DNA of 64,000 nucleotides. Source: Promethearchaeota archaeon. Lineage in GTDB: Archaea; Asgardarchaeota; Lokiarchaeia; Sigyniarchaeales; SOKP01. Under the pieces are notes generated by a model that saw only the letters and a program-made list of their open reading frames with translations, had not been told where the DNA came from and did not search any database. The stretch is from NCBI GenBank assembly GCA_019057795.1, contig JAHLWS010000070.1:96001-160000 (forward strand). The letters run 5' to 3'. Every line of letters starts with the position of its first letter. Positions within the stretch are counted from its first letter, which is position 1. Of the stretch, positions 5,123-17,795 are shown piece after piece. Made by a program: the position numbers and the translations under genes.

Positions 5123-5317
5123 GCCTAAAATCCACTTGCTATATTTAAAATGAATAAATTATTTCAGTTAAAAAGAGTAATTAAATAAATTAAACATCCC
5201 TAAAAAATTTTTCGATTTCCGTCATTCTACGCATTGAAAAAGCTAAAATTTTTTAGTTTTAATCTCTTTTTACTTAATAATTAAGAAACTTAATATTTAT
5301 TAATTAGATGGTTTTTT

Positions 5318-5931
5318 ATGGGAAGAAGAAAAAGAAAGCAACAATCTTATAAAAGAGTCAAAACAGTCCCCAAAATTTTTACTTGCCCAAACAGGTAATT
5401 ATGGTTTTCCCATTTACCTTGGATTGTGGGGAAAAAGCAATAAAAGTAGAAAATTTACGAAAAAGTGTTATAGCTACGGTGAAATGTGGTCATTGTGGTT
5501 TAACAAAGGAAGTTCTGGTTAATTCCATATCAGAACCTGTTGATGCTTTTGGAGATTTTATCGATGTTCATTATGCTGATCAAGAACTTCAGAGATTAGA
5601 AAAGCGTATTGGAAAATTAATAAAAGAAAACGAATGGGGAGAACTAGCATTCTCATACTCAATTTTATCGGATATTTGTAAACTTAAAGTTGCTCAAGCT
5701 TTAGAAGACGAAGATAAAGTAGATTTTGATGAGGTAAATAAATGGAAATTTAAAGCTGAAGAATATAAAAGGCGTGAAAAAGATGCTCTACTTCAATTAG
5801 ACACACTTGAATTGGAAAAAGGAATTAGAACAGACGAAGAATCTTTATTTTCAGAGCATGATGAGAGTGATATGAAAAAAGAAAAGAAAATTGAAGATAT
5901 CTTTGACGATCCTGGTTTTCTTGAATTTTAA
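5318..5931 (+). CDS. elf1: Transcription elongation factor Elf1, spliced: join(5318..5392,5425..5931), 193 aa with acidic C-terminal extension
   Basis: Exon 1 MGRRKRKQQSYKRVKTVPKIFTCPN plus exon 2 CGEKAIKV...ATVKCGHCG...SEPVDAFGDFID gives the Elf1 basic N-terminus, the C4 zinc ribbon and an EPVD.Y..FID-like motif. Confidence 0.9.
5393..5424 (+). other. 32-nt bulge-helix-bulge intron in the elf1 mRNA
   Basis: Central helix CCAA(5387-90)/TTGG(5419-22); 3-nt bulges ACA and ATT; inner helix GGTAA/TTACC plus ATGG/CCAT; outer helix TTTTT.CTTGC/GTGGG.AAAAA. Removal restores the frame and CPNC. Confidence 0.85.
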
Positions 5932-16322: not shown

Positions 16323-17795
16323 ATGAATGTGATTAAGATTGATGAGAACATTTACGAAATACCGCCAAAAACTTTAATGGCGCGTGTAGAAGGCAAAATC
16401 GCGAAGTTTCAAATGAAAGTGCCGGTACATATTTATGCGAACGAGTACATATTGGAAAAGATCAAGAACGACAGAACGCTTGATCAGATTAGCAACGTCG
16501 CTTGCCTTCCAGGAATACAGAAGCATGCAATTGCGCTCTCCGATGCCCATCAAGGATATGGATTTTGTATAGGCGGCGTTGCTGGAACTGACGCCGATTC
16601 GGGTATGATTTCGCCTGGGGGTGTAGGGTACGACATAAATTGCGGCGTAAATTTGTTGAAAACATCATTAAACCTTAAAGACATCAATAGCTCAATTCCC
16701 AGTTTATTAAACGTTATTTTTAAGAATATACCATCAGGTTTAGGAAGTAAAGGTAAATTAAATATAAGTTATTCAGATTTAGATAATGTATTAGATAATG
16801 GTTTGAATTGGGCTTTAGACAATGGTTATGCGATCGAAGAGGATTTAGTACACTGTGAAGAAAACGGTTTTTTAAAGGATGCTAATTCAAAAATGGTTTC
16901 TCAGAAAGCTAAGCAGAGGGGGTTAAAGCAACTTGGTTCTTTAGGAAGTGGTAATCATTTTATAGAAATCCAGAAGGTTGATAAAATCTACAACGATTCT
17001 ATCGCAAAAAAATTAGGAATTTTTGATAAGGATCAAATAACAGTTATGGTTCATACAGGGTCGCGAGCTCTTGGCCATCAAGTATGCACAGATTCCTTAC
17101 GAAATGTCGAACAGGCAATGAAAAAATACAATATCAAAGTTCCTGATCGAGAATTAGCATGTGTACCAGCTGATACTCCCGAAGCACAAAATTACTTAAG
17201 TAGCATGGCGTGTGCTGCAAATTTTGGGTTCAACAACCGTCAATTAATTACCCATTGGTTAAGACAATCTTTTCAAGATTATTTGAGAAAGAGTTTAGAC
17301 GAGCTAGACTTTAAATTAATCTATGGTGTATGTCATAATATTTTAAAAATAGAGGAACACGAAGTTAATGGCAAAAAAATGAAATTAAATGTTCATAGGA
17401 AAGGAGCAACCAGAGCGTTTCCACCAGGACACCAAGATATACCGCAAGACTATAAAAGTATTGGTCAACCCGCTTTGATTCCGGGTACAATGGGATCAGC
17501 TTCCTACTTATGCGTTGGAAGGCCAAAAGCGATGGATCTCTCCTTTGGATCCACCGCTCATGGATCTGGTAGAGTAATGTCAAGATCTAAAGCTAAAAAA
17601 TTATATTGGGGTTCTCAAGTCAAAGAAGATTTAAAAAATAGAGGAATAATTGTAAAAGCTGCTTCACCTAAAATAATTGCCGAGGAAGCTCCAGGAGCAT
17701 ACAAAGATATAGATCAAGTAGTACAAGTAAGTCACGATCTTGGAATCGTAGAAAAAATTGTAAGGTTAGTTCCCATAGGGGTTGTAAAAGGTTAA
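16323..17795 (+). CDS. rtcB: RNA-splicing ligase RtcB
   Basis: DAHQGYGF, GYDINCG, GSGNHF, HTGSR, HRKGAT, HGSGR, EEAPGAYK. Confidence 0.97.
   Translation: MNVIKIDENIYEIPPKTLMARVEGKIAKFQMKVPVHIYANEYILEKIKNDRTLDQISNVACLPGIQKHAIALSDAHQGYGFCIGGVAGTDADSGMISPGGVGYDINCGVNLLKTSLNLKDINSSIPSLLNVIFKNIPSGLGSKGKLNISYSDLDNVLDNGLNWALDNGYAIEEDLVHCEENGFLKDANSKMVSQKAKQRGLKQLGSLGSGNHFIEIQKVDKIYNDSIAKKLGIFDKDQITVMVHTGSRALGHQVCTDSLRNVEQAMKKYNIKVPDRELACVPADTPEAQNYLSSMACAANFGFNNRQLITHWLRQSFQDYLRKSLDELDFKLIYGVCHNILKIEEHEVNGKKMKLNVHRKGATRAFPPGHQDIPQDYKSIGQPALIPGTMGSASYLCVGRPKAMDLSFGSTAHGSGRVMSRSKAKKLYWGSQVKEDLKNRGIIVKAASPKIIAEEAPGAYKDIDQVVQVSHDLGIVEKIVRLVPIGVVKG

What the first reader, a model, noticed from the sequence alone, without database searches (positions are those of the whole stretch)
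5318..5440. tRNA-type (bulge-helix-bulge) intron inside the protein-coding gene elf1
Seen: ATG 5318 reads the Elf1 N-terminus MGRRKRK...KIFTCPN, then hits AGG TAA. The rest of Elf1 (CGEKAIKV...CGHCG...EPVD) resumes in another frame at 5425. The intervening 32 nt form a canonical BHB: a 4-bp helix CCAA/UUGG, two 3-nt bulges (AC^A, AU^U), an intron hairpin GGUAA..AUGG-UUUUC-CCAU..UUACC and an exon-exon helix UUUUU.CUUGC/GUGGG.AAAAA. Cutting after the second nucleotide of each bulge, which is the rule for the archaeal splicing endonuclease EndA, gives TGC CCA AAC|TGT GGG = CPNCG and rebuilds the first zinc knuckle. Established: BHB introns are common in archaeal tRNA and rRNA, while the well-known mRNA case is crenarchaeal cbf5. 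Inference: this Asgard lineage splices the mRNA of a transcription factor. The unspliced RNA yields only a 26-aa peptide, so Elf1 output would depend on EndA/RtcB activity, loosely analogous to HAC1/XBP1 non-spliceosomal splicing. Gene callers would annotate a truncated protein.
Basis: partly seen in the sequence, partly recalled or inferred. Interest (0 to 1): 0.95.

Follow-up and report, generated by a model that had tools for sequence, protein, structure and literature searches.

The report
tRNA-type mini-intron splitting Asgard elf1
The only gene for the transcription elongation factor Elf1 in this Loki-type Asgard archaeon is interrupted, inside its first zinc-binding motif, by a 32-base insert shaped like a tRNA intron. 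Comparison with dozens of relatives indicates the insert must be cut out of the mRNA by the tRNA-splicing enzymes, but no RNA data could be checked.

Summary
Exon 1 (5318-5392) and exon 2 (5425-5931) match positions 1-27 and 28-76 of the Pfam Elf1 profile, so they abut exactly. The 32 nt between them can form an hBHBh' motif as described.

Twenty distinct intron-bearing alleles carry a 28, 30 or 32-nt insert at this codon boundary, and three alleles each from two sister genera carry 30-32 nt. The motif core pairs in 90% of cells, against 45% or less when slid, with compensatory changes. Intron-less relatives, one at 95% identity inside the intron-bearing clade, read CPN|CG at exactly the predicted junction.

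Intron-bearing genes are under strong purifying selection (dN/dS about 0.05, dS above 1). This is the genome's only elf1. The genome encodes a two-subunit EndA and RtcB.

Public gene calls are truncated to 176 aa and start at an ATG inside the intron.

The motif is not the minimum-energy fold of this allele, and it is relaxed in most relatives.

The kind is known from crenarchaeal cbf5. I found no paper reporting it for elf1 or for Asgard coding genes. This scan has noted similar mRNA introns in other genomes and in this genome's rpl11.

The parts
5318..5392 (+). elf1 exon 1, 25 codons (MGRRKRK...KIFTCPN). It ends after the first Cys of the first CxxC knuckle.
   Evidence: Translation. It matches Pfam PF05129 profile positions 1-27. 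The peptide is nearly invariant across alleles, with synonymous changes.
5393..5424 (+). 32-nt BHB-type intron. Read through in the exon 1 frame it gives AGG TAA. It contains an ATG at 5401 that is in frame with exon 2.
   Evidence: It is precisely absent from intron-less orthologues. It is present as 28, 30 or 32-nt variants in 20 distinct alleles.
5425..5931 (+). elf1 exon 2 (CGEKAIKV...CGHCG...EPVD... plus a C-terminal extension of about 115 aa, with the stop at 5929-5931).
   Evidence: PF05129 profile positions 28-76, 36.3 bits, above the 29.8-bit cut-off.
5387..5390 (+). 5' strand (CCAA, exonic) of the 4-bp central helix H. It pairs with 5419-5422.
   Evidence: Pair 5389/5420 occurs as A-U, G-C and G-U among alleles.
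5419..5422 (+). 3' strand (UUGG, intronic) of the central helix H.
5391..5393 (+). 5' bulge ACA, with the predicted cut between 5392 and 5393.
   Evidence: Geometry. The cut rule (between the 2nd and 3rd bulge nucleotides) is as stated in PMC2738675. The junction agrees with intron-less alleles.
5423..5425 (+). 3' bulge AUU, with the predicted cut between 5424 and 5425.
   Evidence: Same as for the 5' bulge.
5394..5418 (+). Intron hairpin h'. GGUAA/UUACC and AUGG/CCAU are separated by a 2-nt bulge (UU, 5399-5400), with loop UUUUC at 5405-5409.
   Evidence: 91% of cells pair, with compensatory changes at two pairs and a variable loop.
5376..5386 (+). 5' strand of the exon-exon helix h (codons for I-F-T-C). 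It pairs with 5426-5436.
   Evidence: The same helix appears in the MFE folds of alleles from the sister genera.
5426..5436 (+). 3' strand of the exon-exon helix h (codons for C-G-E-K).
16485..17792 (+). RtcB RNA ligase gene. It is the presumed exon-joining enzyme, and it is the genome's only RtcB match.
   Evidence: PF01139, 561.5 bits, at G000:C70:112485-113792, converted to window coordinates.

Best explanation

The transcript folds so that exonic CCAA pairs with intronic UUGG. Two 3-nt bulges flank this helix, an intron hairpin lies on one side and an exon-exon helix on the other. The archaeal splicing endonuclease cuts after the second nucleotide of each bulge, at 5392/5393 and 5424/5425. 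In this genome the enzyme is a two-subunit, probably (alpha-beta)2, EndA. RtcB then joins the exons to give ...UGC CCA AAC|UGU GGG..., which encodes a 193-aa Elf1 with an intact CPNC...CGHC zinc ribbon.

Shown here: the anatomy; the exact junction, from the Pfam profile and from intron-less orthologues; conservation and covariation of the structure; purifying selection on the split gene; and the presence of the enzymes.

Inferred: that cleavage and ligation actually occur on this mRNA.

The intron probably arose once in an ancestor within this Promethearchaeia family. It sits in the loop of a hairpin that the FTC/CGE codons already form, and it has since been lost precisely several times.
For: 1. 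Junction. Pfam Elf1 profile positions 1-27 fall on exon 1 and 28-76 on exon 2. The intron-less orthologue P0178, which equals the L002 product (L002 is 95% identical to exon 2), matches positions 1-76 contiguously at 65.5 bits. The 176-aa gene call matches only 28-76.
2. Intron-less alleles in the same genus, and in other genera of the order, read TGC CCx AAY|TGY GG exactly where the cuts are predicted.
3. Recurrence. Twenty distinct alleles carry an insert of 28, 30 or 32 nt at this boundary. Three alleles each from two sister genera carry 30-32 nt with different sequences. The lengths cover all three phases and every variant breaks the frame or adds a stop.
4. Structure. The BHB core pairs in 90.3% of cells, against 44.8% or less when the partners are slid. 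Three pairs show changes on both sides, including A-U to G-C in the central helix between an exonic Pro codon and the intron.
5. Exon constraint. Intron-bearing alleles use TGC for Cys23 in 23 of 23 cases, and only CCA or CCG for Pro24. Intron-less alleles use TGC in 14 of 27 and CCT in 12 of 27.
6. Selection. Median dN/dS is 0.047 between intron-bearing alleles with dS above 1. This is the only Elf1 above cut-off in a MAG estimated 100% complete.
7. Phylogeny. Intron-less L002 lies inside a 100/100-supported clade of five intron-bearers.
8. Enzymes. There are two EndA paralogues of 200 and 201 aa. One keeps Tyr/His/Lys-like catalytic positions, by my reading of the ORFs. There is one RtcB. 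PMC5829648 reports (alpha-beta)2 EndA with the L1 loop in Asgard archaea.
9. Chance. The rate of the strict motif at a given cut pair is about 1e-4.
Against: No public 193-aa protein equals the spliced product of an intron-bearing allele.

The BHB is not the MFE of this allele: it scores -12.6 against -18.4 kcal/mol, and a competing helix can sequester the 3' site.

The exon-exon helix has three G-U pairs. In 12 of 19 alleles with letters at that pair the fourth pair of H is an A.A mismatch, and alleles from the sister genera have one mismatch inside H. Most relatives therefore carry only relaxed motifs.

The covariation rests on few events among related sequences.
Confidence: 0.85

Rival explanations
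1. Translational bypassing, a ribosome hop like that of phage T4 gene 60. The ribosome takes off at the Asn codon, skips the 32-nt hairpin and lands before UGU, so no RNA splicing is needed.
For: A stable hairpin sits in the gap and stop codons lie near the take-off site. In one sister genus the boundaries carry a direct repeat, GAAUG...GAAUG, with UGA directly after the take-off GAA. That resembles the matched take-off and landing codons of gene 60 (from established knowledge).
Against: In this allele the take-off codon AAC and the codon before the landing site, GAU, do not match, and the stop is not adjacent. The same holds for the 28/30-nt class and for the other sister genus. Bypassing does not explain the conserved 4-bp helix with two 3-nt bulges, its compensatory changes, or the constraint on the exonic CCA/TGC codons.
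Confidence: 0.04
2. The gene is expressed unspliced as an N-terminally truncated 176 to 182-aa protein from the ATG or TTG in or near the insert, as gene callers annotate it. Exon 1 would then be a separate micropeptide or untranslated.
For: ATG 5401 is in frame with exon 2 in the 32-nt and 30-nt variants. Public databases hold many 176-aa calls.
Against: The truncated product lacks the first Cys of the CxxC knuckle and one third of the Elf1 domain. In the 28-nt variant (L006) the ATG is out of frame. The exon 1 peptide is almost invariant with synonymous changes, and it joins exon 2 seamlessly in the intron-less relatives.
Confidence: 0.05
3. The locus is a pseudogene or an assembly or sequencing artefact.
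For: The frame is broken and this is a MAG with 7.5% estimated contamination.
Against: An insert identical to this allele's, or closely related to it, occurs in more than 20 independent assemblies and metagenome contigs from different projects. dN/dS is about 0.05. It is the single elf1 copy.
Confidence: 0.02
4. The insert is removed from the RNA, but by a route other than EndA/RtcB, such as another endonuclease or a self-cleaving element.
For: The BHB is relaxed in most relatives and is not the MFE here.
Against: At 28-32 nt the insert is far too small for a group I or II intron. No Rfam family matches. The geometry fits the EndA cut rule exactly. Heteromeric EndA is known to accept relaxed motifs (PMC5829648; PMC2738675).
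Confidence: 0.04

Closest known systems
BHB intron in the cbf5 (pseudouridine synthase) pre-mRNA of Crenarchaeota (Watanabe 2002; Yoshinari 2006; Yokobori 2009, PMC2738675)
   Same: Both are short inserts inside a coding sequence at a functionally essential motif. Both are BHB or relaxed-BHB structures with cuts between the 2nd and 3rd bulge nucleotides. Both occur in hosts with a heteromeric EndA. Both show a patchy distribution with apparent precise losses, and both are miscalled by gene finders.
   Different: The gene differs (elf1, a transcription elongation factor) and so does the lineage (Promethearchaeia, Asgard). The elf1 intron lies in the loop of a pre-existing exon hairpin. Splicing of cbf5 is confirmed by cDNA, whereas this case is not.
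Archaeal tRNA and rRNA BHB introns (Marck and Grosjean 2003; Asgard tRNA intron census, bioRxiv 10.64898/2026.10.13.758758)
   Same: The hBHBh' geometry is the same, with the central helix formed by exon 1 and the 3' end of the intron, as at tRNA position 37/38. The size is similar: ARAGORN called introns in 16 of 29 tRNAs in this genome, most of them 5-30 nt. The enzymes are the same.
   Different: The substrate is an mRNA being read by ribosomes, and the exon halves of the motif are also constrained by codons.
IRE1-dependent HAC1/XBP1 mRNA splicing in eukaryotes
   Same: Both are non-spliceosomal cut-and-ligate removal of a short intron that changes the reading frame of a transcription-related factor. 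RtcB is the ligase in metazoans (established knowledge).
   Different: The endonuclease (IRE1) and the recognition motif are different. HAC1/XBP1 splicing is a regulated stress response. No regulation is shown here, so this is an analogy only.
BHB element in a Haloferax volcanii mRNA 5' UTR (PMC7714728)
   Same: EndA acts on an mRNA.
   Different: According to the scan's later check, that element lies in the untranslated region and does not restore a coding frame. I did not read the paper's details.

Membership tests
Archaeal BHB (EndA-spliced) intron | [quoted passage not shown] | tested here: met
   This allele has CCAA/UUGG, bulges ACA and AUU, a 5+4-bp intron hairpin and a 5+5-bp exon helix. 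It is not the MFE fold. In most relatives H has one mismatch, which makes the motif relaxed.
Archaeal BHB (EndA-spliced) intron | Cutting after the 2nd nucleotide of each bulge gives the functional mature sequence | tested here: met
   The junction joins Pfam Elf1 profile positions 27 and 28 and equals the sequence of the intron-less orthologues.
Archaeal BHB (EndA-spliced) intron | Structure conserved with compensatory change across homologues | tested here: met
   90.3% of cells pair, against 44.8% or less when slid. Three pairs change on both sides. The events are few and the sequences are related.
Archaeal BHB (EndA-spliced) intron | The host encodes the splicing endonuclease and RtcB ligase | tested here: met
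   Two PF01974 genes score 97.7 and 70.5 bits, and one PF01139 gene scores 561.5 bits.
Archaeal BHB (EndA-spliced) intron | The intron is absent from mature RNA and the excised intron is detectable (often circular) | not testable with these tools
Elf1 transcription elongation factor (Pfam PF05129) | Match to the family profile above the curated cut-off | tested here: met
   Exon 2 alone scores 36.3 bits against the 29.8-bit cut-off. Exon 1 covers profile positions 1-27. The intron-less orthologue scores 65.5 bits over positions 1-76.
Elf1 transcription elongation factor (Pfam PF05129) | Four-cysteine zinc ribbon CxxC...CxxC | tested here: met
   CPN|CG ... CGHCG is complete only after the 32 nt are removed.
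Programmed translational bypass (T4 gene 60 type) | Matched take-off and landing codons, with a stop directly after take-off | tested here: not met
   In this allele AAC is followed by AGG UAA, and the codon before the landing site is GAU. The feature is met only in one sister genus.
Self-splicing group I/II introns or other known RNA families | Match to a curated RNA family, with adequate size | tested here: not met
   No Rfam match at E of 1 or less in 5200-5600. The insert is only 32 nt.

The most novel reading that the evidence does not exclude
In this Promethearchaeia family, EndA/RtcB splicing of protein-coding mRNAs is a routine and ancient layer of gene expression. The elf1 intron has persisted since before the genera diverged. 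It may couple production of a eukaryote-like transcription elongation factor to the cell's tRNA-splicing capacity, so it could act as a regulatory gate rather than a neutral passenger.
Probability: 0.25. Interest if true: 0.85.

Novelty: new member of a known kind. Interest (0 to 1): 0.62.

Why it matters
In the papers I could search, endonuclease-mediated splicing inside an archaeal coding sequence is documented for one gene, cbf5, and only in Crenarchaeota. Here a second, unrelated gene, a eukaryote-type transcription factor, needs the same treatment in Asgard archaea, the closest prokaryotic relatives of eukaryotes. The comparative evidence is unusually clean:

- intron-present and intron-absent alleles exist at 95-98% identity;
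- the insert lengths cover all three phases;
- an exon codon covaries with the intron.

This gives a ready natural experiment on how such introns are gained, constrained and lost. Practically, public annotations of this gene in dozens of MAGs are truncated to 176 aa. The same error probably affects other genes, such as rpl11 in this genome.

Tried and rejected
- **RNA evidence.** I looked for RNA-derived spliced products among public proteins. No 193-aa protein equals the spliced product of an intron-bearing allele. The 193-aa member of a cluster that is otherwise 176 aa (P0164) lies on contigs with neighbouring genes, so it looks like a genomic intron-less allele.
- **Thermodynamics.** The MFE and z-score of this allele do not single out the BHB. 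This is uninformative rather than negative, because the 28/30-nt variants and the sister-genus alleles do show the outer helix and hairpin in their MFE folds.
- **Genome-wide scan.** I combined the strict BHB motif with an ORF-joining filter, with and without a codon-usage score. It showed no enrichment over shifted controls: 3676 against about 3660, 1866 against about 1810, and 148 against about 159. The background is too high, and the filters exclude elf1 itself because exon 1 is short and basic and the exon 2 frame stays open upstream. The scan therefore says nothing about how many mRNA introns the genome has.
- **Mobility.** blastn-short found no second copy of the intron in the genome.
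- **One sister genus, g14.** Its weak Pfam E-values are not due to an intron. Those genes carry a duplicated zinc ribbon.
- **Rejected readings.** Pseudogene, assembly artefact, frameshifting and truncated-protein readings were considered and rejected, as set out under the rival explanations.

Full report
**What is in the sequence.** An ATG at 5318 opens a 25-codon reading, MGRRKRKQQSYKRVKTVPKIFTCPN, that runs into AGG TAA. From 5425, in a different frame, the sequence reads CGEKAIKVENLRKSVIATVKCGHCG...EPVD... through to a stop at 5929-5931. Pfam's Elf1 profile (PF05129) matches exon 1 at profile positions 1-27. It matches exon 2 at positions 28-76, at 36.3 bits against a 29.8-bit cut-off. The two pieces are therefore adjacent in the profile, with nothing missing and nothing duplicated. 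The 32 nt between them, 5393-5424, are extra.

**The proposed structure.**
- Exonic CCAA (5387-5390) pairs with intronic UUGG (5419-5422).
- The bulges are ACA (5391-5393) and AUU (5423-5425).
- The intron hairpin is GGUAA-UU-AUGG / loop UUUUC / CCAU-UUACC.
- The exon-exon helix pairs 5376-5386 with 5426-5436.

This is the orientation of a canonical tRNA intron: exon helix, then central helix, then bulge, then intron hairpin. Cuts after the second nucleotide of each bulge follow the rule stated for cbf5 in PMC2738675. They give UGC CCA AAC|UGU GGG, which encodes CPN|CG.

In this genome a strict version of the motif hits about 1e-4 of all candidate cut pairs of 14-80 nt (69,437 hits). Finding one on the single frame-restoring pair is therefore not a chance event.

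Two weaknesses remain. The motif scores -12.6 kcal/mol, against -18.4 for an alternative fold of the same 78 nt, and the local z-score is unremarkable. The exon helix also contains three G-U pairs.

**Comparative evidence.** The organism is a Promethearchaeota (Loki-type Asgard) MAG, judging by the record titles of near-identical loci. I collected elf1 loci from 40 relatives, from a species-level genome collection and from metagenome contigs.

Intron-less alleles read ...TGC CCx AAY|TGY GGx... with nothing between the two halves. They occur in the same genus and in other genera of the order. One of them, L002, is 95% identical to this gene. Its 193-aa product, P0178, matches the Elf1 profile contiguously over positions 1-76 at 65.5 bits.

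Twenty distinct alleles carry an insert at exactly this boundary, of 32, 30 or 28 nt. Each variant introduces a stop or a frameshift. Because the lengths fall in all three phases, no single frameshifting mechanism could rescue them all.

Over the BHB core, 90.3% of cells form standard pairs, against 27-45% when the 3' partners are slid by one to three columns. Three pairs change on both sides:
- Two are in the intron hairpin (G-C to A-U, and G-C to U-A).
- One is in the central helix. There a synonymous CCA to CCG change in the exonic proline codon is matched by U to C in the intron. A third state, G-U, also occurs at this pair.

The hairpin loop varies freely.

Exonic positions that take part in the helices are frozen in intron-bearing alleles but free in intron-less ones. 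Cys23 is TGC in 23 of 23 against 14 of 27. Pro24 is only CCA or CCG, against CCT in 12 of 27. These counts are descriptive, because the sequences are related.

**The split gene is alive.** Between intron-bearing alleles, synonymous divergence is saturating (dS 1-3) while dN/dS has a median of 0.047. Intron-less pairs give a similar 0.056. The genome is estimated 100% complete and has no other Elf1 above the Pfam cut-off. An insert identical to this allele's, or closely related to it, appears in more than twenty independent assemblies. That excludes an assembly artefact.

**History.** On a maximum-likelihood tree of the spliced coding sequences, the intron occupies three clades of the genus whose mutual order is unresolved. 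Intron-less L002 sits inside a 100/100-supported clade with five intron-bearers. Further intron-less alleles lie 92-98% from intron-bearing ones.

The 32-nt and 30-nt introns share the core AUGGUUUUCCCAUUUA, so they are homologous. Absence inside these clades is therefore precise loss, as argued for cbf5.

A Pfam census of 301 genomes of the phylum showed the "half-domain" signature, meaning weak E-values, only in the window's own family. I fetched loci from nine genomes in three other genera of that family:
- Three alleles from one sister genus carry inserts of 31, 31 and 32 nt at the same codon boundary, with different sequences.
- Three alleles from a second sister genus carry 30-nt inserts at the same boundary.
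- All six have a central hairpin, the same exon-exon helix (present in their MFE folds) and a central helix with three of four pairs formed.
- The third genus looked split only because its gene carries a duplicated zinc ribbon.

The exon helix is formed by the codons for FTC and CGE, which are nearly reverse-complementary even in intron-less genes. The intron therefore sits in the loop of a pre-existing mRNA hairpin. This fits the view that such introns persist where the exons can supply their half of the motif (bioRxiv 10.64898/2026.10.13.758758).

**Machinery.** The genome has two EndA-family genes, of 200 and 201 aa. By my reading of the ORFs, one keeps Tyr/His/Lys-like residues in the C-terminal catalytic region and the other lacks the His. 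That is the pattern of a catalytic alpha plus a structural beta subunit. PMC5829648 reports that Asgard archaea have (alpha-beta)2 EndA with the L1 loop that confers tolerance of relaxed motifs. This matters because most relatives carry relaxed motifs. The single RtcB ligase gene lies in this window at 16485-17792. ARAGORN called introns in 16 of the 29 tRNAs it found, so the pathway is in heavy use.

**Rivals.**
- Translational bypassing is the only recoding mechanism that could cope with all the insert lengths. Take-off and landing codons do not match in this allele or in most relatives, and bypassing would not explain the conserved bulge-helix-bulge geometry. One sister genus does have a GAAUG direct repeat with UGA after the take-off codon, which I note as a curiosity.
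- Expression of a truncated 176-aa protein from the ATG inside the intron is what gene callers annotate. That product lacks a third of the domain and one zinc ligand, the ATG is out of frame in the 28-nt variant, and exon 1 is conserved as coding sequence.
- Self-splicing is excluded by size and by the absence of any Rfam match.

**What is missing.** There is no RNA evidence. No public protein equals a spliced product. Whether splicing is constitutive or regulated is unknown. The HAC1/XBP1 comparison is an analogy only.

**Comparison with what is known.** The mechanism is that of the cbf5 pre-mRNA intron of Crenarchaeota (PMC2738675). That paper states that splicing of other archaeal protein genes had been predicted but not confirmed. 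Full-text searches found no paper combining BHB with Elf1 and none describing BHB introns in Asgard coding genes.

This scan has noted the same kind of intron before on other DNA, in other Asgard and DPANN genomes and in several genes of this genome. I treated those notes as leads. I looked at one of them, rpl11. Its N-terminal uL11 motif is visibly split by two hairpin-forming inserts around a micro-exon. A quick look at hppA showed a single open 738-aa frame, so I did not reproduce that note.

**Verdict.** This is a new member of a known kind, and RNA-level confirmation is outstanding.

Noticed in passing
L081:1590-1760 (-) = G000:C73 about 108810-108980: The genome's rpl11 (uL11) is split. 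MSKTNKIIVKALVTGGSASGGPP... stops, a 29-nt micro-exon encoding about GPAVGPTGIN follows a hairpin insert of about 30 nt, and a second hairpin insert (GGAAAU...AUUUCC) precedes the rest of the gene. Pfam L11_N matches only profile positions 26-58 in the main ORF. This agrees with scan note e1-5564950.
   Followed up: partly
L080 (G000:C56:31605-33584, -): The only H+-pyrophosphatase match in the genome lies in a single open frame of 738 aa with no stops. On this quick look, the scan note that hppA carries two BHB introns (e1-5564650) was not reproduced.
   Followed up: partly
window 5650-5931: Elf1 of this family and its sister family is 190-210 aa long. It has a C-terminal extension of about 115 aa, helical and acidic by composition, that ends in DIFDDPGFLEF. 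In the census, Elf1 of most other Asgard families lies in open frames of only about 77-134 aa. The function of the extension is unknown.
   Followed up: no
L086, L089, L090 (genus g14 of the same family): The Elf1 homologues here are 261-aa open frames with two tandem Elf1-like zinc ribbons (CPEC...CVDCG, then CSICGGK...). This is a duplicated architecture, not an intron.
   Followed up: no
window 5376-5436, and intron-less loci such as L024 and L008: The codons for FTC and CGE(K) are nearly reverse-complementary (UUCACYUGC / GYGGUGAA). Even intron-less elf1 mRNAs can therefore form a hairpin whose loop is the Pro-Asn codons, which is exactly where the intron sits.
   Followed up: partly
L083, L085, L088 (sister genus g12): The intron boundaries carry a 5-nt direct repeat, GAAUG...GAAUG, with UGA right after the first GAA. 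The exact cut positions therefore cannot be read from the DNA, and the arrangement superficially resembles a translational-bypass site.
   Followed up: no
window 16485-17792 (+): The single RtcB gene of the genome lies 11 kb downstream of elf1, in an open frame of 521 aa. I saw no evidence of functional linkage.
   Followed up: no
whole genome (G000): ARAGORN finds only 29 tRNA genes in a MAG estimated 100% complete, and 16 of them have introns. Some calls are odd, such as a 1653-nt 'intron' and a tRNA-Stop. This suggests that many multi-intron or non-canonical tRNA genes are missed.
   Followed up: no
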